From positions 60,232-80,231 of the forward strand of contig NW_014040452.1 of the NCBI RefSeq assembly GCF_001186125.1: DNA of 20,000 bases. The letters are read 5' to 3'. The first letter of the stretch is position 1, and every line of letters begins with the position of its first letter. This DNA comes from Sphaeroforma arctica JP610 (Eukaryota). The position numbers and the translations under genes were made by a program. Under the pieces are notes generated by a model that saw nothing but the letters and a program-made list of their open reading frames with translations, searched no databases and was not told the DNA's origin. This document shows positions 1 through 20,000 of the stretch, piece by piece.

Positions 1-1
1 G

Positions 2-465
2 CTCAGGGACCAACTCAAAGGCCTCAATACCACCATGCCTAAATACTAACACATCTGCTCCCTCCTTCAATCCCTGCCAGACAGCTTCCAGCTCATCGCA
101 CAGGATATCATGGCCACTACCGACATCAATGCCTCAATGCCAGTGCAGTACTCAATAGCTCCTCTCTCTATGGCGTAGTCAGTACTCGCTTTCAATCACG
201 TGGTCATGGCACCGATACCCCCAGGCGCCCACCCATTGGCATAAACTCTACCACCGGTAACTGCGCCGCCTATACACAACCTGGCCACAATGCATATGAG
301 TGTCCCAACACTACCTGCCGCCGATGTGGTAGCAAAGACCACAAAGGGAATACCTGCACCACCACAGGCAAACTCACATGCGACCATTGTAGACACTCCA
401 CCGGCCACACGACTGCAGCGTGTATTCGCGGCAAATGCAACTCATCTACCACTGCCACCAACTGA
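2..465 (+). pseudogene. gag: Copia gag C-terminal remnant (UBN2-type capsid end plus nucleocapsid zinc knuckles)
   Basis: Frame 2 from 2 reads LRDQLKGLNTTMPKY*HICSLLQSLPDSFQLIAQDI (copia gag 'LL.SLP.S[FY]' motif). Frame 1 from 262 reads CAAYTQPGHNAYEC, CRRCGSKDHKGNTC, CDHCRHSTGHTTAAC. TGA at 463-465 is in the same frame as the downstream protease. Confidence 0.85.
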
Positions 466-534
466 GATGCCAGGGTAACGCGCGCCACCCACCCCAACCT
501 CTCCTCCAATACCACCCTCCCAACCCACTATACT

Positions 535-978
535 GTGCAATCTCTCACTCTGCGCGCAAAGCCCCGCACCGATACCGCCTTCATCGACTCAGGGACAGAT
601 ATCTCCATCGTCACCTCCACCGATCACCTCACCGACCTTCAGTCCGGCACATATATTATTGAACTGGCTGGCGGCTCTACTACCACCACATACACACGCG
701 GTACCATCCCTGGCATCGGCCCTGCCTTCGTGCTACCCACCGCTGCCCATCAATCTATCCTCTCCGTCCGCAACCTCCAACGCAATGGCTATACAGTCAC
801 TTTCCCCGAGATCAACACACCCAATAATCCCGGCGAGTGTCACATCACCTACGGAACTGACACCATTCAGATCGTCACCGAAGCCGCCGGTCGCTACATA
901 CTCAACGCCTTCCAAGCTGAGAACCTCACGCTTCGGACACCAGTCCACACGCGCCACCAAAGCTATGGCTATTGCTAA
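535..978 (+). pseudogene. pol: Copia aspartic protease and start of GAG-pre-integrase region
   Basis: AFIDSGTDISI (DSG at 586-594), IELAGG flap, SILSVRNLQRNGYTVTF and GRYIL are typical copia protease-region motifs. The ORF ends RHQSYG, resembling the 'WH.RLGH' motif. Confidence 0.9.
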
Positions 979-1012
979 CAACCTCCCCATCAAACCGCCA
1001 ATAGCCTACTGC

Positions 1013-1455
1013 AACGATTACCAACTCGCACCCGATCTCTTCGAAGACCACGTCCAAAAACCCTTCGGTCTCATCGACATCGACTTGTTTGCATCCAAAC
1101 ATAACAAGCAAGTACCCGCTTACTGTACTGAAGACTACATCGACAAAGTCACGCCCTACCACGATACATATAAACAAAACTAGCACCAACCCAACAAGAA
1201 GCTCTACGGCAATCAACCATGGAAGAACTTCTTCAAAAGCTGTCGCAAACTCGACAAAGACGCCGGCCGGGTCATCATGGTCTTCCTGTGAAACCGCGCG
1301 CCTCCTGGTGGACACAACTCATGGACCACCTCCAACCTCACGTCGAAAGTATCACATCATCGCCCAACACCTTCATCCGCCGTGGCTCCGATGGCTCTCA
1401 AGAGTTCGTTACCAATCCACCTTGGCTCTACACTGGTGTCGCTCTTTTCGGACCC
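1013..1455 (+). pseudogene. Dam-like DNA N6-adenine methyltransferase domain (phage T1 Dam/DIRS1-MT type) embedded in pol, disrupted
   Basis: Frame 2: NDYQLAPDLFEDHVQKPFGLIDIDLFASKHNKQVPAYCT...YHDTYKQN*HQPNKKLYGNQPWKNFFKSCRKLDKDAGRVIMVF. After a shift near 1285, frame 1: PVKPRASWWTQLMDH...TFIRRGSDGSQEFVTNPPWLYTGVALFGP. SAM-binding DLFAS..N at 1082-1105; catalytic-position YGNQPW at 1205-1222. Confidence 0.85.
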
Positions 1456-1533
1456 ACCAAATACGCAGTCCCCATTTCCGCCGGCCTCCAAACCGCCATT
1501 GACATCTTTATCCTCCACTCCGGCAAACCTGAA

Positions 1534-2310
1534 TGCACTTGCACCTCCTGCGCGAGAGGCAAGATGCGCAAGAAAGCCACTAGCAACAAGCCCCGTTCTC
1601 TTCCCGACATAGGCTCCGAATGGCAAGTCGACCTTGAAGGGAAATTCGAAGAAAGCTACGGGGGCCACGCCTATACTATCCGCTACTTTGAACGTACTTC
1701 TGGTCTCGAATACGAGGAAAACCTCAAGCACAAAAACGACGCCGCTGCCACCCTTGACCGCTTTTACACCTGGATTGAGAACATAGGCCGCCGTCGCATA
1801 CGCACTGTTATTGCCGACCGCGGTGGTGAGTTCATTTCCGCCGAATTCAAACGAGTGAACCATCTACATCATGCACAAATCCTATACAACGGTACTGACG
1901 ACTCTGCCCAACACGGCGGCGTTGAACGTGGTCTCCAGGCAAATAAGAAGACTGCTCTCTGCCTCATCGCCCAATGCAAGCAACTCAGACACATGTGGGC
2001 GGAAGCTAAGTCTCACGCCACCCACCTACACAATATCTCTCCTCGTGACACCAACCCCGGCCGTGCCAGCCCCTACGAGCACTTCTTCGGCCGTACACTC
2101 ACCGCCCACGTGCACGCATTACGAGTATATGGCTGTATTACCATGTTTATCGACCATGGTAACAAAGATAAGCTCCGTGAACAAGTTTGCTTCGGCGTTC
2201 TCCTTGCTCGCGATCTCTTCTCCAGAAACCCTGAAGAATACCGCATGCTCAACACCGCCACAGGCCTAGTCATCACCACACGTCACGTAACATTCAACGA
2301 AGGAATCTTC
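1534..2310 (+). CDS. pol: Copia integrase (CxxC of zinc finger, DDE core, C-terminal SH3-like region), part of ORF 1219-3627
   Basis: CTSCARGK at 1540-1563; VDL (D at 1630); ADRGGEF (D at 1816); VER (E at 1924, D-X35-E spacing); MWAEA, SPYE, LRVYGC and TRHVTFNE motifs. Confidence 0.95.
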
Positions 2311-2919
2311 CCACTTTGGAAATCACACGGGTCCAAATCCCGCCCATATTTCACCGAGGACCAAATCTCCAAGGTTAACACATATCGTGACACTCTCCCA
2401 TCACTCCCCACGGATCCACAAAGCGAATCCACTGACCCCGAGCCCACGCTCACTCACGAGCCGCTCACCACACCCAGTTCACACACAGAGGACATGCCCT
2501 CCACCAACCCCATTTCAGCAACCTCCGACAACCCTGTATCCCCTGATCTCCATGAGCGCCTCCAAGCCGCCACTCAGCGTGTCGCTCGCTCCACAAAGTC
2601 AACACCTACTGCACGGCAAGCGGACAAGGCACACATTAGCACTGACGCACACCACACACAACAACCTGCCAAAGCCGCCCAACTCGACCGTGCTGCTCAG
2701 GAACAAGCATGCATCCTCGGCAACGCATACAATGACAGGCTACAACAACACATCCGTAAACGTCCCAACTCCCGTGAACTACGCAACCTTCTCATCGACA
2801 CATGTGACAACACACATCACACCGGCATACCTGCCATTACGTCCAACCCTCCTCCACTCACGCGGAAAGTACGTAAGCATGTCTACAGTGTGTGCGAATC
2901 TATACAAAACTCACCAATC

Positions 2920-3960
2920 ACCCCTACTACCATCAACCAAGCACTGAAATCCCCTGAAGCTGACCTCTGGCGCGCGGCCATTCAACGCGAGCTTGACAGC
3001 CTCCACAGTACCGGCACAAACGTCCTTTGTGATGCCACTGACCTCCCACCTGACGTACTTACCGTCACATCTAAGTGGGTCTTCAAGATCAAGATGATCA
3101 ATGGCGTCATCGACAAGTACATGGCTCGGCTAGTCGCTCGCGGATCCACACAAACCAAGGACGTCAACTTCACGGAAACCTACGCACCCACCTGCACTCA
3201 CGACAATCTCCGCACACTCCTCGCTATTGCCGCCAACCAGGGCTGGCACACAAAGCAGATGGATGTCAACATCGCATTTCTTCACGCTGATCTCGACCAC
3301 CCGATCTACATGAAAGCTCCATCGGGCCCCGCACAAATCGGCCTTGTCCCTTCCAAAATCCTCGAACTCAAAAAGTCCCTGTACGGGCTCAAGCAGTCCG
3401 GCAAGCTCTGTTTCTCACTGATCAAATCCAAACTTCTCTTCTTCGGCTTCACCCAAGCCCACACTGACAGATGCCTCTTTCACATCCGCACCCCCACATA
3501 TAACTGCACAGTGCTTATATATTTCGACGACCTCATTATCTGCGGCTTTACCCAAAAAGATGTGGACAAATTCAAGCGACAACTCCTTGCCGTCTTCGAC
3601 TGTTCCATACTCGGAGAGCCCGCCTAGCTATTAGGTTGTCGTATCGTCACCAACGACATATCCACTAGCGTTGTCCAGACCTCCTACATCGACGAGGCCG
3701 TCCAACACTTCGGCCTTGAGTCTGCCCACGCCGTCCACACGCCCCTCCCTGCAACTACCCTTTCCGCCCACCATGGCCCGCCCTTCCCCTGCGCGTACCG
3801 CGAACTCGTCGGCACTCTCCTCTACCTATCCATCCTCGTCCGTATTGACATCACCTTCGCCGTGAACACTCTTTCGCGATTCCTCAATAACCCCAGCGAG
3901 GACCGCTGGAACGTAGCATGCAGAGTCCTACGCTACCTCAAAACACACCCAACACTCGGA
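2920..3960 (+). pseudogene. pol: Copia reverse transcriptase (RVT_2 type) with one in-frame stop
   Basis: PTTINQAL..W..AI..EL.SL, KWVFKIK, ARLVARG, QMDVNIAFLHADL, LKKSLYGLKQSG and YFDD (3520-3531, normally YVDD). After TAG at 3625-3627 the same frame continues LLGCRI...YRELVGTLLYL...RIDITFAVNTLSRF. Confidence 0.95.
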
Positions 3961-3999
3961 CTCACATACACAAAGTGTCCACAACCCCTTTCCACCGAC

Positions 4000-4593
4000 G
4001 CATACACAGACTCAGACTATGCTAGTTGCCCTGACACACGTCGATCAACGACAGGCTACGTCATCCGTGTTTGCAACACACCCGTTATCTGGAAAAGCAG
4101 GCAACAGAAAACAGTCAGTACCAAGCCCGCTGAGGCAGAGTACTTTGCCACCAGTGAGGCCGCCAAACACATACAGTGGCTGCGTAACTTCCTGTCCGAA
4201 CTCAACCTCGCATCTGACAGCCCGACCACACTCTTCTATTGCGATAACAAGTCTGCTGTCCACGTAATTACCAACACGGGCACGCCAAAACAACTAAAAC
4301 ACATCGACATCCGTGTGCAAAATATCCGCGATCTGCAGGAACAAGGCGTGATTGACACCAAATACGTCGCCACTTCCGATTACATCGCAGACTATCTCAC
4401 CAAAAGCCTGCCACGCCCCGCACACAGTAAACATACCAGTTCGACGCTTACCCCGGTGCAAGATCCCGACGCTCGTGCCGATGCCACACCTACCACCAAC
4501 CTCATCGCAGCCTTTTCTCACTCCAGCGAATTCGAACACACACATATGGCTAACACTATCTTTCGAGTTTGTTTCCTACATGAAGCTAACTAG
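4000..4593 (+). pseudogene. pol: Copia RNase H and C-terminal tail of pol
   Basis: AYTDSDYA, RRSTTGY, WKSRQQ, EAEY, YCDNKSA, KHIDIR, IADYLTKSL (to 4410); stop at 4591-4593. Confidence 0.95.
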
Positions 4594-4754
4594 ATCCAGG
4601 AGAGTTACACACATGGTCCAACTTCCCGACTTTCTATCACAACACACCACATTGGCACCAAATCCAGTGAGAGGAGAGCCATCCATCTCATACTTCCGAA
4701 CCCAACCTCGCTTCACATCGCACGCGCTTCACACCACATTTGGTTTTCAAATTC

Positions 4755-4761
4755 AGGAGAG
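4755..4761 (+). promoter_or_regulatory. Polypurine tract (plus-strand primer)
   Basis: AGGAGAG immediately precedes TGTTGG, downstream of pol. Confidence 0.7.
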
Positions 4762-4933
4762 TGTTGGAGCAAATTTAAAACCCAAACTAACCCTAGAGAT
4801 ATTTGGTGTCAGAGTGTCAAAGTGTCATGTTGAGCAAATACAGCATGGTACACACGCCGTAGAATATTGTGAATATGTACATATTAGACCTACAATATGA
4901 TAACAAACTTACTTGTAAATATATGTTCTAACA
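4762..4933 (+). repeat. Probable 3' LTR (~172 bp)
   Basis: Starts TG directly after the PPT and ends CA. The termini TGTTGGAGCAAAT / ATATGTTCTAACA form a 10/13 inverted repeat. Composition switches from C-rich to AT-rich. The 5' LTR is not in the window, so the right end is unconfirmed. Confidence 0.65.
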
Positions 4934-4989
4934 AAATGTTTATTCAATTTATGGTCTTAGTATCATAGCACTTACATCCCCACACATCT

Positions 4990-6764: not shown

Positions 6765-7258
6765 CAACATAGATTAGCAATTAAAATTTGCATTAACGTT
6801 TGTTCTATCGATATTGTTTCTGACTGACAGATACACACTTACTTAGCCCTCGCAATTGAGTGGTTTGCTGTGAACAGTAGGCGCATGATAGAAGTTACAT
6901 TCAGAAATTTGATTGTCCTTTTAATACACTCTGCTGTCATTAATCCACAGCTGATTTGATCTAAATTATAGCTCGTTAAGAATGATAAAATTCAAGGTAG
7001 ATATTCGAACATGTTTCGTCCCTATCTGCCATTGATGTGATGCCGGTTCTATTCAGCATTTACGCTCACCCATAGCAGATGTAAATACTGAAAATCGATT
7101 AGCGTGTGCGTACATCAATTTGCATTATTTTTTTGGATTTGCAGCCGCATCTTTCCAACACAGATTAGCAATTAAAACTCGCATTAGAGCCCGTTCTATT
7201 GGAGTTGTTTTTCTTCTTCTTATAATTGAATGGTTTGCTGTGAACAGTAATCGCATGA
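6765..7258. repeat. Diverged direct repeat pair (6765-6888 and 7156-7258)
   Basis: Shared CAACA[T/C]AGATTAGCAATTAAAA and an identical 19-mer TGGTTTGCTGTGAACAGTA (6861, 7231). Confidence 0.85.
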
Positions 7259-8170
7259 CAACAGATACAGACAGAAATGGGACTAAAGCTCCTCGAGTAG
7301 ATCTGATATCATACATCACGACGTCTCACAGGTAAGGAAGGCTCGCCGCCAATACTACTATCGACTTGTTAGGAGAGATATTCTCATGACGGACCGAGAC
7401 AAGCCTCTCATGCAAGCTTTACCCCTTGCCGTGAACATACCCAAATCCGCCTTTGTGACATGGTAGCAACCAACACGTTCCTGTTCAAATTGCTTGACTA
7501 TCGTACTATTGGATGTCTCTGTTCAGTGTGTCCCGGAGATAAGACTTTTGCTTCCAGTCACTTTACTTGTATCAGTATCAAAATGAGGCGTATTCTGGCG
7601 GGCCCTAACCTACCGCCAATTTGACGGACTCACTACAACAGCTACATAATAGAATCGGCAAAGCTACCACGACATCTGGGTTCTCTGCGAACATCTCGGG
7701 AGTTTCCTTCTCCATGAACAGCTGGCACCAATATACCCTCATCCAATATTGGTCAATAGTTTGATGTCACATCTTGGCACAATACTCTGCTGAAGTAATA
7801 TTTCCAGATTTCAGTACAGACTCATATTCTTGACTTGTGATACCGCCTTTGATACTTCCCGATGAGACTATCCAGTATATTTCAAATGCATCAGTTGTGT
7901 GGCGTGATATCGGGCAGCCTCCAACTTTGCTCCGAAGCAGAATTCGTTCAAAAATACTCAGACTAGCTCAGCTCAGATTACCACAACGAAAGTGGGCCAG
8001 CTTTATTCCACACAGTGGTACCTGATTTTTAGCTTCCCCCAATGGTGGAAGTATTCTGTATCAATCGTCGTGAATGAACACGCCGTATGTCCTCTATTGT
8101 TGCGTCACTCACCCCGAGCTCCTCTCAGCAGTTCGACAATCTTAACTTCCCTTCAATCTTCCCAGAACGT

Positions 8171-8230
8171 CTACAACGAATATGAAGTCTGATGTGAATG
8201 CTACAACGAATAGGAAGCCTGATGTGAATG
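8171..8230. repeat. 30-bp tandem duplication
   Basis: CTACAACGAATATGAAGTCTGATGTGAATG / CTACAACGAATAGGAAGCCTGATGTGAATG, 28/30 identical. Confidence 0.95.
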
Positions 8231-8374
8231 TAGACATAACTAAAGGGTTTTAGGGTTTTAATAGATTTATCCCTACTATACTCTCCTGTCATTGATCCGC
8301 AACCGACTAGATCCAAATCCTGGCTGCGCCATTGGTAAGAATAATAAAAAATCAAGCTATATGCCATCGGTGTG

Positions 8375-9035
8375 ATACCGGTTCTATTCATCAGATGCAT
8401 ATGTGATTTACGCTCATATCATTGCAGATGTGAATAATGAAAATTGATTACCATGTGTGTCTGCATTGATATGAATTTGTAACCTTTCGATTTACAGCCG
8501 ACAGGTTTCAACACAAGGCCCTCTTTGAACCCGATAGACAACGCAATAAAAGTCCTATAAAAGCATAGCAGCTTTCCCAATGGTATTGCTACTATTCGAC
8601 AGATTTTCACCAACCACGATGTTATTCTCCGACTTGGACGGTTTAGTTTAGGCTTTTAAAAATGTACAACAATAGGAAAACGCATAAACACGATGTCTTT
8701 CTCTATATTTCTACTGTCAAATACCGGTTCTGATCAACAGATGCATATATAGTATACGCTTCCTTCATTGCAGTTGTCAACAATGAAAAATAATGAATGT
8801 TTGTGGATATGAATTTGCAACCTTTCAATTTGCAACCTACAAGCTTCAACACAAGGCCACTTGGACCTGGTAAACAACATGATAACGCTTATGTGAGAGT
8901 GTCATAACATTTCCAACGGTGTTGCTACAATTTTTGAGATTTTCACTTACCACGACGCTACTCTTCGACTTGAACGGTTTGGTTAAGACTTTTGAAAATG
9001 TACAACAATAGAAAAATATACAATCGAGTCGTCTT
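8375..9035. repeat. Diverged ~346-bp tandem repeat (8375-~8700, 8721-~9035), with partial related copies at ~7028-7146 and ~9900-10085
   Basis: Collinear anchors in both copies: ATACCGGTTCT, CAGATGCATAT, GATATGAATTTG, TTCAACACAAGGCC, CGACTTG[G/A]ACGGTTT, AAAATGTACAACAATAG. Confidence 0.85.
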
Positions 9036-10141
9036 CCCCTACATGTTGATACCAATTCAAGGTAATTCTGCGTCGCATTGTGTCATGGCATCATTTTATT
9101 ATAGCATCGTCATTATAATGGTAAATTAAAATTCCGAGGTATAGCTGTTCTTCCTTGTTTGCAGTCCAAATCAACAACGAAAAGTTCATGTTGTGCCTGG
9201 TAACCAGCACATTGTAGCAATAGATATGCCAGCTTCACGTGCGGATTCTTGAGTGCTACGGGTCCCAACCCGCTATTGCATACCTGTCTGAATATTATCC
9301 ATCCACCTGAATTATTGGATTCGAACCCTAAAGAGAATACAGGAATCAAAAGTGAATGAACAAATTTGAAGAACTAAAAAAGAGGTTCGGAGTCGGGGGG
9401 TGGATTTGAACATATGATTTTATATTTGCTGCCGACAACACTGAACTCATAGCCTCTTTGGACCCAGTGAGTAGCGATAAACGACTCTATAACAGCATCA
9501 CAGTCCATTGCTAGTTGTGTTGCGTCTCATCTACAGATACGCACATACTTGGCACTCATTCCCCAACTTAATTTTAGTAATTTGTAATTAATATACAATA
9601 TAGCTATACATTGATGGAACCCAACTTAATACATCTACAATGTAGCTGTGTCTGGGACCTCGATGTATCAGACATACTATGTCTTTATTTACAGTCAATA
9701 TCGATAACGCAAGGGCAATGTTGTACCCGGTAATCAACACGATATAACTTTCATGACGGTTTCACATTCCATTACATTAGTGCTAAGGGTCTTTTGATCC
9801 CCTAGGTGGGATTCACTTTGAATCCTAGCCCGACCACTTGACTGATTTGATTCGAGCCCTAAAGGGTAAAGACTTCCAGCCGATTCGGGTGTCGATTGGA
9901 ACTTGCAGCAATTTATTATGCAGATGAAACCTTTCAAAGCAAGGCCTCCATGGACCCGGTACATATTGTAGTCTAGCACAACAAAATTGCAACCGATTAT
10001 TATTACTATAACTTCTAACTCGCAGATGCAATTCTTACTTGAACGGTTTCTTTCAGGGCATAAGAGTGTAAAATTATTAGAACGAAGTAAACCAACAGTA
10101 TTCCTTAGGCAAACTTAAGGACCTCAATCGCCTGTCGAATA

Positions 10142-10702
10142 AATCTGATTTTTACTGTGCAGTTTATATGTGCCGCATCCTAAAGCATTGGTAGAAAATA
10201 TCTGATTTTCAAGGTTAAGATACAAATATAGGTTTTATTGGCAATCGAAATCACCAAGGGGATGCTCAAATTGTACAAGGTATCCAGTACAGTGAAACAT
10301 ACATTTGATTGCATCACAGCCCGTTTTTGGAGCCGTATGCTCTCAACAAAAAAGCTTACTCACTCCGTTCCTACCCTTCAAGCTGAAGGGGCTCATAACT
10401 TTTATTGCAGTGTTTACGATTGAATCTACTTTTGCTGCGCAGTTTAACTGTGCTGCATCCTTAAAGCATTGGTAGAAACGATATGATTTTATAGGCTGAG
10501 ATAAAAATATAAGTTCTATTGACAGTTGATATCACCAAGGAGATGCCCAAATTGTACCAGATAAACAGTACAGTAAAACATACATTTGACTGCATCACAG
10601 CCCGTTTTTGGTGGCGTATGCTCTCAGCAAAATAATGCTTGCTCACTCCGTCCCTACCCTTCAAGCTGAAGGGGCTCATAACAGTAATTGCAGTGTTTAA
10701 TG
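10142..10702. repeat. ~281-bp tandem duplication (10142-10422, 10423-~10702)
   Basis: Collinear anchors: TAAAGCATTGGTAGAAA, ATCACCAAGG, AAACATACATTTGA, TGCATCACAGCCCGTTTTTGG, CCTACCCTTCAAGCTGAAGGGGCTCATAAC. Confidence 0.95.
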
Positions 10703-11036: not shown

Positions 11037-14000
11037 TTATTGCACATGCTCAGTAGGCTTGACATATAGGTGTGTGGCTACGTTGCCCGTTGCAAAGCTG
11101 ATCGTGACATCGTCCGAAATAGAGTGGAGACTCAACTTCGGTAGTGCAATCAATCCACAGGCTAATGGACACAACTGGTAGGTGTGCGACTGACTCGACA
11201 TGGGCAATACCCTCACTTTACTATATTTGTAACCTGTGTTTGAAATGGTATGCAATAGCGATGGTATAAGAAGGCAATTACCGTCATTTCATTCGAATCT
11301 ATGATGTGGCAGCAAGAGCCACCAATAAATCCACACATCATTGTTCTCAGTGAAGGCGAAAACAATCTCAAAACCAGCTTTGTTCCGGTAAGAAAAAACT
11401 AATACCAGCGGCAGCAAAGCCAACTATGTATGCCAGCGGGCGTAGATGCGATTACAGATAAACGTGCTTATATTTTGAAGCGCCGTCCGACACTTAGTTT
11501 CTAGTCAAAACACATTGCTTGAGTGCACAGATAGCTGTATCACGATAAGCATCGTCCATATTTTCAACCTTATTGAAACGCTAATATCCGTTGGGCAAAC
11601 AGCTATGGGTCCATGGTTTTAAAGACGTTCAACCCTATTTATGCAAGCTTACGTAATCGAAGCAGCTGTAGATCGTGCTGTTTGTATGCTAGCCTTCTAT
11701 GCACATACCTGAAAACATGAATGAATCGCTGGCTTCCATTGTGAATGCCACGTGTTGTACTCTATTCGATTTGTTGAATAGCCGATGTGTAACGGTCAGC
11801 GGCGTATTGAGGAAGCCAACCGATGCAATGTCTGTGCAATTGCAGGCAAGTACAGGTAACATGCGAACTCAAATTGAATATGGTTTTGACATTAATGATA
11901 CTGAGTTTGGATTTTTATGCTTGCCCCACTCAACATCCAAACTCGACGGGCGACGCGACGCGTATGTACGGTACAGCATCCAATGCACAGTGACATAGAT
12001 GTACAAGTGCCAGATGCCGGCCATATATGTACTGCACTACTCTAAATATCATCGGGTGCGACTACACACTATTGAACAATTAGCTAAGAAAGTAGCGCGC
12101 ATACATACCTGTTTCAAGTACGAGCGGCTGCCTTTCAATTACAACTGATGGCAACAATATGACAGAGCTGCCCCGTCGATTCTCTTTTGTGCTGTAGCAG
12201 TGAAGTAAGGGACAAAATCATTAGGGTGCAAGCACTCGACTGTATAACGAATGCGTATGTCTTCTTATTAGATAAGTCACGAAGGTGGACACAGCACCGA
12301 AAGGGCTCTTCCCGTCGCGAACTGATTTGAAGACAAACTTTGCTAACTTAGACACTGTCGGTTGCGAAATTTTTTATAGTAGGGAAAAGAGCTGGGCCCC
12401 AGAAACGAAGCCCGACAGCAGGTCAAAAAATCGTGAACTATACGGATGCAGATAAACATGCCATCAACACTCAGTAGGCCGCAGTATTCATATAACACAA
12501 GTAATACCTTTTCCAGTGGATGAGCATCTCACCCACGTCCACAACCTTACTGTGTCCTACTGGCAAATCTAGATTGCACCTCAGATACAGGCATTCGCTC
12601 CAAGCGTGCTCACAATATAAATTAAAGTCTTTTCGACTGACGTGAGATGTGCCCTGCGCCATTTCTATATCTGAGGATAGCTGCAATTCAGTTGATAACA
12701 CATCGATCCTGTGCCAGCCGCAGTCACATATGGTGTGAAATTGGAGGGTAAAGTTCAGTAAGCATAAGTGAAAACGGATTGTATAAATCCGTAATTGGTG
12801 AGCGGCAAGCAGTATAAAACAAAAAGGCTCCCCAGACAAATATATGCAATAAGCTTGGCAAAAGCTCGCAACAACCGATCATCATGAGCAACTATTATAG
12901 ATAATGAAAACCTATGTGCAGTGTAGCAGCGATTTCAAGCTCCATTGAAACAATTCCCACAAGCTGTACTAAATTTACTTACTCAAACGGAATTTTGCTG
13001 ATCGCATCCACCATAACCATAAAGGTGTCTCCAGAGGCGACCGCATCCTCTCGTACAGGCCTATGGGAAATTAAATACGAGTCAGAACTCCAATAGTACT
13101 TTGTATGATTTAAAAATTATCCTAGGCATATGTATACAAATCGATTTTAGCTACTGAGCGCTCGACTAAGCGAATGCACGCCACCACACGCCCAATCAGA
13201 TCAGCCTGAGGGTTTGTTCCATGAGCAAACAATTGCCCATTATGTTACAGCGAATGATACCATGTGTAAGATGAACAAGACAGACATGCGCGCGTTCGAG
13301 ATGAACAATAAAACAACGATACGTGTACCTAAATTGGTGGGCCACCTTAGCTTGCCATTCGAACGGCTCGATGACTGTCAGTGGGAAAGAGAGCTCACTG
13401 ACAGTAGCCACCCCTTGGCACATATAAGACAACCGCACCGCCAATGCACGCTCATCCACATCTGTCAAATTATGCAGGAAGAAGGACAGGTCGTGTGTGA
13501 CACCAGACAACAGTTCAGGCAGCGGCTTCTCCAATGTGTGCGTGAGAGTGTAGTTATCTGCGTTCTGATTGTCCCTGAAATGGAAATGAGCAATAACGCC
13601 ACGAGCACGTGAGTTTAGATAAGCAGCAAAGGGACGAAAGCGAGAGCCATCTAAATGACGACAAACCATGACTGATAAAATTTCAAGAAACGACACATAG
13701 TCTGCGAGCTGGTTGCATGGTTGGTGCAGCAACAACTAAAACCCGACGTGATCGAAACGATTTTGATGTACGAGATGCACACAAGACCATGGATATCAAT
13801 CAGTATGTATCTGATACACCTGCACGACATTGTCAATGTGCACAGAAAGTTGTGCATACAACACAGAAGGAATAGCACATATAGACAAAGCCTAGTTCAG
13901 CACGCGTCGTATTGGGTACACAATGAGTCCTACATACCCATGCATTATTTCAGATTGTACGGAACCGTCGCTGCCGTTTGCAGAAATCGCGTCTGCACTC

Positions 14001-17000
14001 CATGATAGCAGGCCTCCGCGGAACAACTCGATACTCGCTCTCCTTGCAAGCGCATTCGGACTAGCACTCAGGTCCCGCGTAGACTCCCAGAGCTCGATAC
14101 GCAAATCAGTGACCATATCGTCTTCATGATTTGTCACCTGTATCAGTATGGGGCTCACTTCTCCAGTGACAGCTGTGATACTATCTAGTTCCACCATACG
14201 ACCAAAGCCATCTGAACCAAGACCCATGTATTTCCTATTTGAAACCGTTCTGGCCGTCGATTTGGACCGCGCCAGGGTCACATCAACTGCCAAGGCGTCC
14301 TCATGCGCCAAATTTTCGAGGGACAAATTGTCTGGAGTACTTCTGGGCGTCGTTGGTTTCTTTATATTCAAGTGCGAAGAAATAGCAGCTTCCAACATAT
14401 GTCCGGGAACGGGCATTTCCTTCTCTGGCACATCCGCATCTGAGGTGAATGTTATATCCACGTCATTGCTGTTGCTTTCCCTGTGCACCAGCCGCACCTT
14501 CATCTGGGATGGCCTGGGGGTGAGTCGTGCGGACCATCGCTCATTATGGAATATGCTCAACGCCTCCGAATGGCTGTTGAGGACATCGATTTCCACCCCT
14601 CTTCTCCTATCGCGCTCGTCACATATGAGACCAATACGCCTCCTCGAGTAATCCACTGTAGAATCCGCGCCCAAAGAGCCTGTTGTGCTGTTTACAAGAG
14701 TATTGGCACTCCCGCTGATGGAGCGTCTCTGAGAAGTAGCCGGCAAATCCAAGGCTATCGCATTCTTGCCGGGATTCGCACCACTGCCCAGCCCGTTGTC
14801 TGCATGGAGTATGCGTGGCTGATCAAAGACTAACCTCGGTACTAAGCCAGCGAAGTGGGTGTCGGCCTGCTCTCCTGCAACCTTGGGAACATCTAACAAA
14901 TCTAGAGTCAACTCCACCCGGGAAACCTCCAATAGACGGCTACCAGCCGCTCCCCCGGTCGCACCCATAATGAGTGTGTATGTGCGCGGCACCTCAGGAG
15001 TGAGTGTCAGGTCAGCGTATGTACGTTCATTGGCTGATACAGTACACACCACCGGCTCTGCAGACAGTGCGCTGGTGTCTACCACTGCACTCAATGGCGT
15101 GTCCTGGTGGTGTATTGTACTCCTCTCGTTTAGGGTTGCCTCTGTCATGGCGATACTAAGAGAAGCTAGCTTGATGGTCTGGGGTAGATTTGACACCACG
15201 TTGACGGACACACACACTTCGTCCACGATTGTATACGTGGGGCTTTGAATGCACACAGAACAGTTAATTATGGGTAAACACTCACTCATTGCTATTCTCA
15301 GAGCGGGAGTGCTTGCAGGCTTATCCATGCTTAACACGTTCGTAGAATCGAGTAGCTCATCGCTTGAAGCCATTGCAGGTGAATCAGATTTGTTTCCGCT
15401 GCTTCTAGCGGTGTGGCTTGCTTTCGTGATGATCCACTCCAAAGAACTATCAGCTGGTGACATCAGGGTGAGATCAGAGGACGTGGTGGGTATGAGAAGA
15501 TTCTCTGCTGACGTGCTTGAATCCACTCCCTTCTGCACGTTTATGTCCCCTAGCGCTCTGGCCAGGCGCAAACAGGCGTCGCGTTCAGCGTGTGAGCCAT
15601 TGAATGTGCGACTGGAACATTCCAACGCCAGCTGCATGGCGCGGTCAAGACGGCCTAAAGCACAAGCACACACGAGCGATGAGCGCAGTACAATGTCCAC
15701 TAGTACATCCCAGCCATCTCGTCTGTATTCTACATGAACCTGTATAACAAAGAAAGAGGCCACACAGACGCGAAGCAAACAAGTTGTCAGTCTTACCCTT
15801 ACGCGCACATACGGACAATTTATTTTGAAAAACCAAGCCAACTGTGGCATTTATATATATTACCTTTTCGTAGACTAAGAAGGCGCGTTCGTAAAGCTGT
15901 GCCCTGAGGTACTGATCGGCAATTTGAACAGCTATACACCTGAGTGATAGACATAAAACTAATGAGCAAAGGATCACCACGGGCAAGCTCAAAATAAAGC
16001 TATTTTGGGTGAATTGGAAGGTAGATAGTCGCGGAGTGAGAGCACTGGTCACCCACCGACAGCTCACAATCACACAGAATTGAGGAAAACATGCACACAC
16101 GGGTCATCGATTGCATTTGCATCCAGCATTGCACAGACAACAGTACCACCTGATATGAGCAAGCGGAGATAATCCTCCGACTGAACATACGCTATCCCTA
16201 CCTTGTCATACGTGCGCATTTGAAGCGTTTGTACTGTATGCGAGCTTGGGCAAGTAGTTCTACCACCTCATTGACAAAGTCAGCCTCTTGCATCTACAGA
16301 AAAAAACATGAGAGAAGAATGAGATCAGCAAAATAGTCAGATAAGTAAGGTCGCGTTGTAGCTACACTGACTAACTGCTAATATGCAACCGCGACAAGAC
16401 AAGAGAATGATCACCTTTTCCCCTTCCCACGTCGATTGCCTACACCCACATCTCGACGAAAGAAAATAAAAACCACTCCGTTTACAGCACAATTTGAGGT
16501 AGGCTATAATATTTACCTGCGCAGCTTGTCCGAGTACTTGTATCATCTCTTGGCCGACAAAAGTGTTCGCAGGTTTATTTTCCGAGCCATCGCGATCTAT
16601 GGAAGCCAGCCTATATAGACTTGCGGAGGCCAGATCCTGGGTACAAGTAGAGCGCAATGGTTTGTATCAGATCGGACATTGCACATGAAGTGTGACACGA
16701 TTGTAAGTATACTATCGAATTTTCTATAGCGCTTCTGCTGGTCAACGTGGAAGTACGCACAAACTGATCGGACGGTGCGCCGTAGTCTACTGAGGATAGG
16801 AATGTTGCCATTTCGAGAAGAACATCCAAGTCTAATAAATAATACACGAAAAATATATATCCGATCGGGAGTGATAAATCAGTGAAACGATGCTTTTCCA
16901 ACTAAAAAAATCTCCCGGCTCACAAGTGATTCCAAGGTTGATACGAATGAGCTACTACCGAACGATTGGTCAGAGCGAAGAAGTATTTGCTACATACAAA

Positions 17001-19281
17001 CAAGTCCGTCCAATCGGAAAGAAATCATGCGGGAGGCGGGGACGGTCAACACGCGCGCACTTACTGTGTCTACAATTTGTCGATAACAACTGTGTCTCTT
17101 GATGGCTACCACAGCTGCCTGACGCAGATAGAAACCGGGGTGATGGCTTTGGTCAGCTTGTACTGCTCCTATGGATACTGCCTGCATTACCAAAACAGAG
17201 TTAAATCCGCATAAGTGATATACGTCTCACATCGTTGCTAAATACAAATGCGGTTGTTGAGCCTTAGGATGACGTTCGAAAAGGAGGGTCGAGAAACAAG
17301 AACGTCTCAAGAAAAGCTATGGTTTGTAGAAACAGTGTTACTGTAGTCTCAGCCGATTATGAGCAAGCACTCAACACGCCCCGCAGGCTACAAACAGGCG
17401 AAGAATATATATGCTCACGAATCGCCAGTGGATTGACACGGATAGTCCGAAACACAGTGTCAGAGTTTTGTGAACTAGGCTGCAAATATATATACTACAC
17501 AGTCATACGATTGGCAGCCACCATAAAAACGCCTACCAAGCAAAAGGAAGCAGGTAATAGACTAAGAGGGCTAGCGAACATACACACGTACCTGCAAAAA
17601 GAGCTCCCCAAACACTTGATATTGTCTGCTGATCCAGCTGAGATGCCGGAACGAATCCACAATGGAATCACTGATAGCCGCCGACATGTTGGCGTGCGGT
17701 GTGGCGAGTGTGGGAACTTCTTTGAAGTGCGACAGATGGCGACGGAACAATTCTATGGCCTTCCAATGATTAAGTACTAATTGTAAACTGTATTGCGCGA
17801 AAAACAGAGCAAATAGTCATTCGACAGGAATACGATGGTACATGCAAATATACTGTATTCGGTTGTGCATATGTTCAAGTCGAACCAAACATGTGCAGGC
17901 TGCCGTCCATATGCACAATAGATAAAAAATAGCTTCTTCATCGATGCGAAAAGGTCTATGAATCAAATAAAGAAGTGCCCTAGCTTAATACCTCTGGTAG
18001 CGAGAGTAAGTATATCATCAAACTGATTGATAGCAGTCACCACACCTGCACGAGCGATGGTTGATGAGCCCTGCCATAGCTTTGATCTCATTCTTCTGCA
18101 CATGTGTCATGGACTGGCTTCGGCTCTGGCGCAGAGTCAGCAGTTCCGAGTACGCGGACGAGTAGTGGCGAATGGCCTCGTGACTGCGAGAGAGGGTTTC
18201 ATTGAAGAAGGCGAGCTTGAATTGGTGACGGATGGTATACACACTGTATCCTGGCGCTCCAGCCGGCACGCGGTGGCTGCGGATTCGCCCAGCTTGTTCT
18301 GAGTAGATTATATGAGAGATGCGCTGAGATATTAGCGTTCTGAATGTGCTTGTGTGTTTTGAGTATCTATAGTTAAGAGCGGGCTCAAGTATACCGAATA
18401 ATTTCTACCGGCATATCAATGGGCGGACTAGACCCATATGTATGAAAAATCTCATCACAATTTTTTAAATGGGTAGGTACGCCACGGGATACGAGGGTAA
18501 CCTCGAGGTGAGGTGAATCAATAGTCTAGTAAGCTAGACGCTTGTGCGTACTGAAATCGAATGCATATGCGATTTAAATTGGACATTGCATTTTAGCTAT
18601 GCAGTAAATGACTAGCGCACGTCTGCCCAGGTTCGCAAGTTATGGATGAGATTGATATAATATACATACCATCGATGGCTGCGCTAGCCAAGTCCTTGAA
18701 TACGCTGTCCAGCCGGTTGACATAGCCCTGGAATACGTCGGGATTCTTCTCTTTCTCATTTACCGGCAGAATGAACAGCGAATTCTTGCCCTCCACTTCG
18801 CACGCACGTCGAAAACTGATAGCACGCACGTCCGCCTGTGGATCATCTGAAGAACACACGACACACGACACTTGAGGAATCAGTACACGGCTCCACACTT
18901 CTGAACATCCATGTTTATATCCTTTTGTCCGTGTTTATAATCTTTCTCCTCACTACATTGCAATTAAATAAAGCCATTATTATTCCAGGTATCGCACTGT
19001 CTAGAGATCAGAAGGCACGGCATCCAAATGTATTCGACAACTACATCCACATAACGCTAGCTTATAGATCACTGAGAGCACACACCTTTGAGATATGTGA
19101 TTTGATGCAGCAACACGACCACCAGCTTACACAACCGTCCCTCCAAGCTTTTGCGCACGGCAGTCAAATGAGCGGCACATTCGGATTCCATTCGAGACCA
19201 GTATGGATCGTTCCACTCCAATTCGAAGAACACAACCATCACCGACGGTAGTGCATGCATGTGTTTGAACATCCAGTTGCT
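11037..19281 (-). CDS. TRAPPC11: Trafficking protein particle complex subunit 11 (foie gras/gryzun), multi-exon, 5' end incomplete
   Basis: Reconstructed GT-AG exons: 19086-19281, 18670-18846, 18046-18298, 17592-17787, 17065-17181, 16761-16786 (tentative), 16517-16610, 16202-16293, 15864-15939, 13938-15739, 13329-13574, 12983-13060, 12508-12708, 12109-12191, 11709-11831, 11037-11233. Phases join consistently (3957 nt, 1318 aa plus stop). Motifs matching animal TRAPPC11 as I recall it: WMFKH..LPSVMVVFFELEWNDPYW...SECA, IRHQFKLAFF, EIKAMAGLIN, WISRQYQVFGELF, HPGFY, YKRFKCARM, YRRDGW, STELQL, SDSFMFSG, LYVKP*. Confidence 0.93.
13938..15739 (-). CDS. TRAPPC11: Large central exon of TRAPPC11 (1802 nt)
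   Basis: Lies within ORF 13892-15850. Acceptor ATACAG|GTTCAT and donor CATGG|GTATGT. Begins VHVEYRRDGWDVLVDIVLRSSLVCA. Confidence 0.85.
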
Positions 19282-19560
19282 CTGCGAATATCGAAGGTTA
19301 AAAATTTCATGACAAGATATGCATGCTCCCAATTAGATTATTATTTTCAGGGGATGCTTTTGGTCTGGATATAATATTATGTGGGCAAAGAAGATATATT
19401 TAATTGGTACCATATCTGCTACTTTGAAGAGTCCACTGCCTGTTCATCTACTCCAGACAGTCGAACGGGTCACTAACCAATAAGTCCAGATGTCGAATAA
19501 AAAAAGCATCAATGACTGCTCTACATCTTTCTCTCTCTTATTTTTCCTATCACTCCAAAA

Positions 19561-19577
19561 ACAAACACACACACAAC

Positions 19578-19626
<49 letters not shown>

Positions 19627-19756
19627 CCCCGCTATGTACTCATACATCTCTTTATGAACATACATGTATGAATATATACAGATATATTAAAACATATCAA
19701 GAAACACACACAGACACACGCACACACACTGACCACACACCGACATACAGATACAC

Positions 19757-19792
<36 letters not shown>

Positions 19793-19831
19793 ACGCACAC
19801 ACACTGACCACACACCGACATACAGATACAC

Positions 19832-19869
<38 letters not shown>

Positions 19870-19880
19870 GTGTGTGTATG
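19561..19880. repeat. Compound (CA)n microsatellite with an internally duplicated ~75-bp interrupted block
   Basis: Long CA runs; CAGACACACGCACACACACTGACCACACACCGACATACAGATACACACACGCAC occurs twice (~19711 and ~19786). Confidence 0.95.
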
Positions 19881-19889
19881 TATGTTTCA

Positions 19890-20000
19890 TGACAAATATA
19901 CAAATACAAATACAAATAAAAATACAAATATACTTACATATGTATATAAATATAAATATAAATATATATATATATACTATATATATATATATATATATAT
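19890..20000. repeat. AT-rich simple repeats (AAATAC, TAAATA, (TA)n)
   Basis: Directly visible; runs to the end of the window. Confidence 0.95.

What the first reader, a model, noticed from the sequence alone, without database searches (positions are those of the whole stretch)
1013..1455. Ty1/copia retrotransposon with a DNA N6-adenine methyltransferase (Dam-like) domain built into its pol polyprotein
Seen: between protease and integrase core lies an extra ~147-codon segment. Bridging one stop (TAG 1181, probably TGG) and one frameshift (~1285), it reads DYQLAPDLFED...FGLIDIDLFASKHNKQVPAYCT...DTYKQN[W]...LYGNQPW...KL...VIMV[F]PVKPRASWW. Established: this order and spacing match the phage T1-type Dam family (Pfam Dam, PF05869) and the MT domain of DIRS1 retrotransposons (W.L...F....G...DLFAS..N.....Y...DAF...W...Y.[NF]PP[WF]...K....VI...P.....W). 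Standard copia elements have no such domain. In DIRS1 it follows RNase H, and the methyltransferases I know from dinoflagellate and charophyte retrotransposons are cytosine DNMTs. Inference: a copia family captured an amino-methyltransferase. It shares the C-rich composition of the rest of pol, so it looks like a long-term resident. Packaged with pol, it could mark the cDNA or integration site with 6mA (or 4mC) to mimic active chromatin, escape silencing or tell self from target. I cannot verify novelty without a search.
Basis: partly seen in the sequence, partly recalled or inferred. Interest (0 to 1): 0.92.

Follow-up and report, generated by a model that had tools for sequence, protein, structure and literature searches.

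The report
Copia integrase with built-in adenine methyltransferase
A broken copy of a Ty1/copia jumping gene, likely from the protist Sphaeroforma or a relative, carries a phage-type adenine-methyltransferase-like domain set between the two halves of its integrase zinc finger, a layout that sister copies and a distant second family also show and that would let the element write or read adenine methylation as it inserts.

Summary
Bases 1013-1455 encode a Dam-family (PF05869/TIGR01712-type) domain inside the pol of a decayed Ty1/copia element (profile-profile probability 90%, E 1.4e-6, motifs collinear; Pfam alone is weak, E 0.011). It is not a one-off insertion: two sister sequence types in public DNA runs carry it without this copy's stop and with length differences that keep protease, domain and integrase in one frame, and two Sphaeroforma arctica gene models with 36-37% identical integrase carry it at the same place. 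The catalytic motif is NQPW, not NPPW, so activity is open. A May 2026 preprint describes DAM-bearing LTR elements, all Ty3/gypsy-like, and never mentions copia; its E. coli activity test was negative. Earlier notes of this scan hold gypsy+Dam and copia+cytosine-methyltransferase cases on other DNA; none of my seven look-ups showed copia+Dam. Verdict: new variant of a known kind; function inferred, not shown.

The parts
262..423 (+). Three CCHC-like zinc knuckles of gag (frame 1); gag upstream is decayed and runs off the window's start
   Evidence: pattern match; no Pfam hit for 43-462
463..465 (+). Stop codon between knuckles and protease in this copy
   Evidence: state in sister copies not seen
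466..926 (+). Aspartic protease region, DSG motif at 580-597 (frame 1)
   Evidence: sequence; motif recognised from recall, no Pfam hit
926..928 (+). Break 1: this copy is 14 bases shorter than a sister contig here, which moves the reading from frame 1 to frame 2 and removes the first His of the zinc finger
   Evidence: tables 4 and 7; frame arithmetic
929..940 (+). N half (HH) of the integrase HHCC zinc finger, read RFGH in this copy (frame 2)
   Evidence: P0085 has WHDRLGH at the same place with a faint gag_pre-integrs hit, E 0.16
941..1012 (+). Linker of 24 codons
1013..1455 (+). Dam-family (PF05869 / TIGR01712-like) amino-methyltransferase domain; motif I-like DLFA 1082-1093, motif IV NQPW 1211-1222; stop at 1181-1183 and a one-base frame break near 1284 in this copy
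   Evidence: sisters lack both breaks
1534..1551 (+). C half (CxxC) of the integrase zinc finger, CTCTSC (frame 1)
   Evidence: P0033 has CNPC after its domain C half
1621..1935 (+). Integrase core with D (1630), D (1816), E (1924)
   Evidence: rve E 0.051; 4005 proteins at E<=0.001, the 13 scanned all carry rve
2107..2313 (+). Retroviral SH3-like domain
   Evidence: PF25597 E 7.6e-6
3037..3627 (+). Copia-type reverse transcriptase, YFDD at 3520; stop at 3625-3627 in this copy
   Evidence: RVT_2 E 1.2e-39
3997..4404 (+). RNase H; the frame ends at 4593
   Evidence: motifs located; PF13456 E 0.0055
4755..4761 (+). Purine tract AGGAGAG
4762..4933 (+). 3' LTR, 172 bases, TGTTGGA...TCTAACA; no second copy in the window, so the 5' LTR lies upstream of base 1
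   Evidence: other contigs turn unlike at 4761 and 4930-4934 (table 7)

Best explanation
This is a decayed copy of a Ty1/copia lineage whose integrase has a Dam-family methyltransferase-like domain between the HH and CC halves of its zinc finger, so the domain likely stays part of mature integrase and would put N6-methyladenine on the new cDNA or on the DNA at the insertion site. Shown: domain identity, its place, its presence in sister copies and in a distant second family. Inferred: the viral-type protease cannot cut the domain out without splitting the finger, so it rides on the integration complex, which supplies the DNA binding that this compact domain (motif I then IV, about 150 residues, little room for a recognition domain) would lack alone. 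In a host where 6mA marks active chromatin and AMT1 maintains it, a seed mark would help the new copy be transcribed, as the 2026 preprint proposes for gypsy DAM-LTRs. I put the architecture at about 0.9 and this writer mechanism at about 0.4-0.45.
For: Domain: (DLFA, W-ending helix, NPPY=NQPW, hydrophobic strand, WW and FI all collinear with phage TIGR01712 proteins); 15 of 16 weak phage tblastn hits of P0085 fall on the domain, 3 are annotated methyltransferase. The phage family's model matches PCIF1 (Foldseek E 3.7e-4), E. coli Dam (Z 9.0, rmsd 3.0, 118 aligned), PCIF1 (Z 8.8, rmsd 3.8, 143) and M.TaqI (Z 8.7, rmsd 3.8, 147). Residency: two sister contig types lack the stop, and contigs show +14 at 926 and +1 at 1280-1284, which together restore one frame. 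2 of the 150 best integrase hits also match the domain (E 3.3e-17, 3.9e-8), both named S. arctica, and they group with the window in an integrase tree (SH-aLRT 95). Place: H-to-C spacing 10-35 residues in 91 matches from 88 of the 150 hits, about 198 here. Constraint: 15 silent and 10 amino-acid changes among the 25 displayed differences in the domain, expected silent share 0.21-0.29, p 2e-5 to 1e-3. Asn and Trp of motif IV are kept; the active DIMT1 has NLPY (PMC10915109, passage).
Against: No activity test. Motif IV has Gln for the first Pro, whereas 160 of 160 phage rows have NPPY; contig ends suggest one sister shares the Gln and the third type is not shown. The preprint's E. coli assay of TE DAMs was negative and Iyer et al. 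call DIRS1 MTase domains likely inactive (PMC4738411, passage). 21 of 61 difference rows were hidden; if all were amino-acid changes in the domain, p would be 0.04-0.33. No single contig spans protease to integrase core, so the one-frame reading is pieced from short contigs; P0085 and P0033 are scrambled gene models, each with half of the domain. The copia domain itself was not folded. The host is inferred, not shown. The tree is a quick one with long branches and no bootstrap.
Confidence: 0.45

Rival explanations
1. One reading: the domain no longer methylates but binds adenine, 6mA or a host factor and steers integration towards 6mA-marked, transcribed chromatin, as chromodomains steer chromoviruses.
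For: Its place in integrase suits targeting; altered motif IV; negative E. coli assay for TE DAMs; apparent purifying selection would fit equally; enrichment of 6mA on DAM-LTR copies in the preprint would also follow from targeting.
Against: Asn and aromatic residue of motif IV and the DLFA motif are kept in this family, and DLFA and GN in the second. The one insertion seen lies about 9 kb from the nearest recognised host coding frame, not at an evident gene start.
Confidence: 0.3
2. The substrate is RNA or the RNA:DNA hybrid: the domain binds or methylates the element's genomic RNA or primer inside the particle, like its fold relative PCIF1.
For: Best Foldseek match of the phage family model is PCIF1, then KsgA; Iyer et al. 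place DIRS1 MTase domains with PCIF1; the preprint raises a hybrid substrate.
Against: DNA methyltransferases tie with PCIF1 in the wider search; the place in integrase points to DNA; the fold result is for the phage protein, not the copia domain.
Confidence: 0.12
3. Tolerated passenger: an old capture that is kept only because it must fold and stay in frame for the zinc finger to close.
For: Any insert inside an essential finger is forced to stay open and folded, which alone gives purifying selection; the Gln in motif IV may be early erosion.
Against: Two families only 36-37% identical in integrase keep the methyltransferase motifs rather than shrinking the loop.
Confidence: 0.1
4. One-off nested insertion, chimera or assembly artefact, never in frame with pol.
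For: This copy has three breaks between protease and integrase core; no intact full-length protein was found.
Against: Sister contigs in two DNA runs carry the segment with 10-12% differences and without the breaks; a second family has it at the same site; codon make-up matches pol.
Confidence: 0.03

Closest known systems
DAM-LTR retrotransposons (Fernandez-Moreno et al., bioRxiv 10.64898/2026.05.21.726589; whole main text read, supplements not seen)
   Same: An LTR retrotransposon with a DDE integrase and a Dam-family domain in pol; the preprint has an ichthyosporean lineage that includes S. arctica, a species with 6mA at gene starts.
   Different: All five lineages there are placed by RVT_1 trees and called Ty3/gypsy-like; 'copia', 'Ty1' and PF07727 occur 0 times. 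This element has RVT_2 and copia order, the domain sits inside the integrase zinc finger, and motif IV is NQPW instead of the Asn-Pro-Pro triplet they report.
MT domain of DIRS retrotransposons (PF05869; PMC3783388, PMC4738411, passages)
   Same: Same Pfam family of domain carried in a retrotransposon pol.
   Different: DIRS use a tyrosine recombinase, lack protease and DDE integrase, and carry MT in the RT-RNase H frame. Direct kinship of this domain to DIRS MT was not tested.
Phage N6-adenine methyltransferases (TIGR01712, phrog_111, PF05869)
   Same: Collinear motifs over about 100 residues, motif I before motif IV.
   Different: Stand-alone phage genes with NPPY in 160 of 160 rows; about 24% identity to the copia domain.
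Retrotransposon-borne cytosine DNMTs (de Mendoza et al. 2018, PMC5890265, passages)
   Same: A DNA methyltransferase captured into pol and proposed to mark cDNA.
   Different: C5 enzymes in LINE, DIRS and gypsy elements; that paper says the Symbiodinium copia elements lack a DNMT domain.
Ordinary Ty1/copia elements
   Same: PR-IN-RT-RH order, RVT_2, SH3-like domain, purine tract, TG...CA LTR.
   Different: 148 of the 150 nearest integrases show no match to a phage Dam profile, and H-to-C spacing of the finger is 10-35 residues where measured.

Membership tests
Ty1/copia | Order protease - integrase - RT - RNase H | tested here: met
Ty1/copia | RVT_2-type reverse transcriptase | tested here: met
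   PF07727 E 1.2e-39, 136.9 bits against cut-off 31.6
Ty1/copia | Two LTRs and a target-site duplication | tested here: inconclusive
   3' LTR and purine tract found; the 5' end lies outside the window and no genome is held
Ty1/copia | Compact HHCC zinc finger ahead of the integrase core | tested here: not met
   both halves are present but about 198 codons apart; this is the variant feature and does not remove the element from copia
Dam family PF05869 / TIGR01712 | Profile match over the curated cut-off | tested here: inconclusive
   only halves could be scanned: 15.8 and 18.9 bits against 28.1; no TIGR01712 hit for P0085, P0033 or the C half; local profile-profile E 1.4e-6
Dam family PF05869 / TIGR01712 | DLFA-type motif I before motif IV, with the later strand and Trp motifs in order | tested here: met
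Active amino-methyltransferase | Motif IV (D/N/S)PP(Y/F/W) | tested here: not met
   NQPW in this copy, probably in one sister; consensus from PMC7544214 and PMC10915109 passages, which also give the active exception NLPY
Active amino-methyltransferase | Rossmann-like fold of the copia domain itself | not tested
   no intact natural sequence was in hand; only the phage relative was folded
Active amino-methyltransferase | Methyl transfer from SAM | not testable with these tools
   needs a bench assay
DAM-LTR (2026 preprint) | LTR element with DDE integrase and a DAM domain | tested here: met
DAM-LTR (2026 preprint) | Ty3/gypsy-like RT (RVT_1) and organisation | tested here: not met
   RVT_2 and copia order; preprint text
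DAM-LTR (2026 preprint) | Domain nested in the eukaryotic (DIRS-derived) DAM clade | not testable with these tools
   no DIRS or gypsy DAM sequence could be fetched
DIRS | Tyrosine recombinase, no protease or DDE integrase | tested here: not met
   DDE integrase and protease motif present

The most novel reading that the evidence does not exclude
An undescribed copia lineage with an integrase-methyltransferase chimera: an independent capture of a Dam domain in the other LTR superfamily, grafted into the loop of the integrase zinc finger, so that the integration complex itself writes (or reads) 6mA on each new insertion. It would also mean that some elements counted as DAM-less controls in the S. 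arctica 6mA comparison carry a DAM.
Probability: 0.4. Interest if true: 0.8.

Novelty: new variant of a known kind. Interest (0 to 1): 0.6.

Why it matters
Dam capture by LTR elements is reported only for Ty3/gypsy-like elements; a copia case at a different site argues for repeated selection of the domain. The site is informative: a domain inside integrase has to act at the integration complex, which narrows the open question of what TE-borne Dam domains do (write 6mA on cDNA, or read it to choose a target) and offers a reason why isolated domains fail in E. coli. It also shows that the integrase HHCC finger can take a 200-residue insert. If the host is S. arctica, the culture and 6mA maps that the preprint describes make the idea testable at once.

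Tried and rejected
No genome is held for the window, so copies could not be counted. Word-index protein searches found nothing: integrase region at longer and near lengths (0 of 556 and 0 of 483 candidates) and the P0085 domain half (only itself among 9). The metagenome scan gave 2 loci at 23-24% identity; the one I read (L001) is a copia frame with an ordinary finger spacing. Viral and prokaryote scans gave one chance 10-residue hit and two blanks. The ESM Atlas gave no family for P0085 residues 55-200 and did not answer for the host gene. PDB sequence searches found no methyltransferase for P0085 or the phage profile. A MAFFT alignment of P0085, P0033 and the C half laid the two halves on top of each other and was dropped. 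Nine window frames are not in the protein collection letter for letter. No RNA holder was listed among 24 runs, which says nothing on expression. P0127 (E 0.0098 to the segment) was rejected: low score, scattered match, outside the clade. The NPPW at 1414-1425 was rejected as the catalytic motif. Four difference rows (1274, 1281, 1282, 1284) were left out of the silent/amino-acid count as alignment effects of the one-base gap; the 11 rows flanking the domain gave 3 silent and 8 amino-acid changes, i.e. no sign of constraint there. Paper searches for copia with adenine methyltransferase, Dam, PF05869 or HHCC listed no paper whose title or abstract describes such an element; the library lacks most subscription papers, Repbase, GyDB and Dfam.

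Full report
What is there. Bases 1-4933 are the 3' four-fifths of a decayed Ty1/copia element: three zinc knuckles (262-423), a protease motif (580-597), integrase core with D-D-E, an SH3-like domain, an RVT_2 reverse transcriptase (E 1.2e-39), RNase H, a purine tract and a 172-base LTR. This copy has stops at 463, 1181 and 3625 and frame breaks near 926 and 1284. The rest of the window is host DNA with a spliced TRAPPC11-like gene on the minus strand. No genome is held.

The domain. Library hits are weak because only halves could be scanned: Pfam Dam E 0.011, phrog_111 E 0.0014. I therefore built a profile from 160 phage proteins related to two TIGR01712 members. The segment, read through with X at its breaks, scored 13.5 bits against at most 4.4 for 500 shuffles. 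Profile against profile, with the two S. arctica fragments added, probability was 90.4%, E 1.4e-6, against at most 8.6% for 40 column shuffles, and the motifs lined up in order: DLFA, the helix ending in Trp, NPPY opposite NQPW, the hydrophobic strand, WW, FI. The phage profile is narrow (72-91% identity within the folded subset). A model of the phage protein (mean pLDDT 72.9; the other four models 39-45) matched PCIF1, KsgA, MmeI, E. coli Dam and M.TaqI, so the family is an amino-methyltransferase fold. The copia domain itself was not folded.

Is it part of the family? Twenty of 24 listed runs hold the stretch or part of it. Laid contigs of two DNA runs show at least three sequence types across the domain. 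Two lack the stop; a contig has 14 more bases behind 926 and another one more base at 1280-1284. These two length differences move the reading from frame 1 to 2 and back to 1, so sisters appear to have protease, domain and integrase in one frame. This is pieced from contigs of 119-248 bases; none spans the whole, and the two runs may be one strain. Of 61 difference rows 40 were shown; I dropped 4 beside the gap; 25 lie in the domain, 15 silent and 10 not (one is the stop), where 21-29% silent is expected by chance (p 2e-5 to 1e-3, ratio about 0.17-0.27). If all 21 hidden rows were amino-acid changes in the domain the signal would fade (p 0.04-0.33). The 11 flanking rows gave 3 and 8. Separately, a search of 1.84 billion proteins with the C half plus integrase found no close relative (0 at E<=1e-30), but 2 of the best 150 also match the domain: P0085 its N half (E 3.3e-17) and P0033 its C half (E 3.9e-8). 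Their sources name both as Sphaeroforma arctica. Their integrases are 36-37% identical to the window's and group with it (SH-aLRT 95; quick tree, 124 rows = window plus 123 of the 150 hits with over 70 aligned residues, 127 columns, long branches). So at least two distant families share the insert, consistent with one old capture. The host is inferred from this alone. Proteins below rank 150 were not seen.

The site. Copia integrase begins with a zinc finger, WHxRLGH then CxxC (recalled; measured here as 10-35 residues apart, median 28, in 91 matches from 88 of the 150 hits). In the window RFGH is at 929-940 and CTCTSC at 1534-1551, about 198 codons apart, with the domain between. The loose contig end at 927 supplies a His three residues before the Arg-Phe-Gly-His in a sister (my reading). 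P0085 has WHDRLGH before its domain half and P0033 has CNPC after its half. The domain is thus an insert in integrase, with linkers of about 24 and 26 codons.

Catalysis. Motif IV of amino-methyltransferases is (D/N/S)PP(Y/F/W); the first residue and the backbone carbonyl between the prolines bind N6 and the aromatic stacks on the base (PMC7544214, PMC10915109; passages). Here it is NQPW. The window-type contig ends at 1216, exactly 30 bases past the last sister difference at 1186, which in a 31-mer graph implies one sister is identical over 1187-1217 and so also has Gln (inference); for the third type 13 of 28 differences are hidden; P0085 breaks off after GN. Asn and Trp are kept and the active DIMT1 has NLPY, so activity is possible but unproven.

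Mechanism. Because the domain lies between zinc ligands, it likely remains on mature integrase and reaches the cDNA ends and target DNA. I favour a writer that seeds 6mA which a host AMT1 would maintain (0.45), over a reader that steers insertion (0.3), an RNA-directed role (0.12), a tolerated passenger (0.1) and an artefact (0.03). The seeding model is the preprint's, proposed for gypsy elements; applying it here is inference.

What is known. DIRS elements carry a PF05869 domain (PMC3783388, passages), thought likely inactive by Iyer et al. (PMC4738411, passages). 'Copia', 'Ty1' and PF07727 do not occur. Its supplements were not seen and could list such elements. Its screen used E 1e-5, which the halves scanned here do not reach. 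PMC5890265 and PMC6338049 (passages) describe no Dam in copia. Searches listed no paper whose title or abstract does; searches were for context. Repbase, GyDB and Dfam were not available. Earlier scan notes show gypsy+Dam and copia+C5-methyltransferase cases on other genomes, unchecked by me; none of seven look-ups showed copia+Dam.

Verdict. A real feature and a new variant of a recently described kind: the superfamily (copia) and the site (inside the integrase finger) are not described in what I could search. Function is open. Interest 0.6.

Noticed in passing
window 13892-18934, minus strand: Spliced host gene; exon 18021-18404 matches TRAPPC11 (PDB 7b6h, E 1.3e-5). The 652-codon frame 13892-15850 probably belongs to it but had no Pfam or PDB hit.
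   Followed up: partly
window 6765-10700: Several pairs of degenerate direct repeats with spacings of about 280-390 bases (families D2, D3, D5-D9) in A+T-rich DNA with few long frames; possibly old non-coding repeats or a decayed transposon.
   Followed up: no
window 463-465: Stop between the gag knuckles and the protease, in frame with both; a mutation or a read-through site. The sister state was not among the rows shown.
   Followed up: no
window 1414-1425: A second NPPW in the C half of the domain; aligns to the phage 'fdlpxw' stretch and is GPPKW in P0033, so not the catalytic motif.
   Followed up: yes
window 17268-17780, plus strand: 170-codon open frame ending in a CxxC-like motif, opposite the host gene; only a faint Pfam hit.
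   Followed up: partly
window 19545-20000: CA-rich microsatellite with an exact 79-base duplication (19704-19782, 19779-19857) and a TA run at the window's end.
   Followed up: no
P0103, P0051: Two copia-type polyproteins among the hits carry a Tudor-like domain (PF21743) between integrase and RT, another chromatin-type accessory domain in copia.
   Followed up: no
window 4400-4593: The pol frame runs about 60 codons past RNase H; some other contigs differ by one base at 4576.
   Followed up: no
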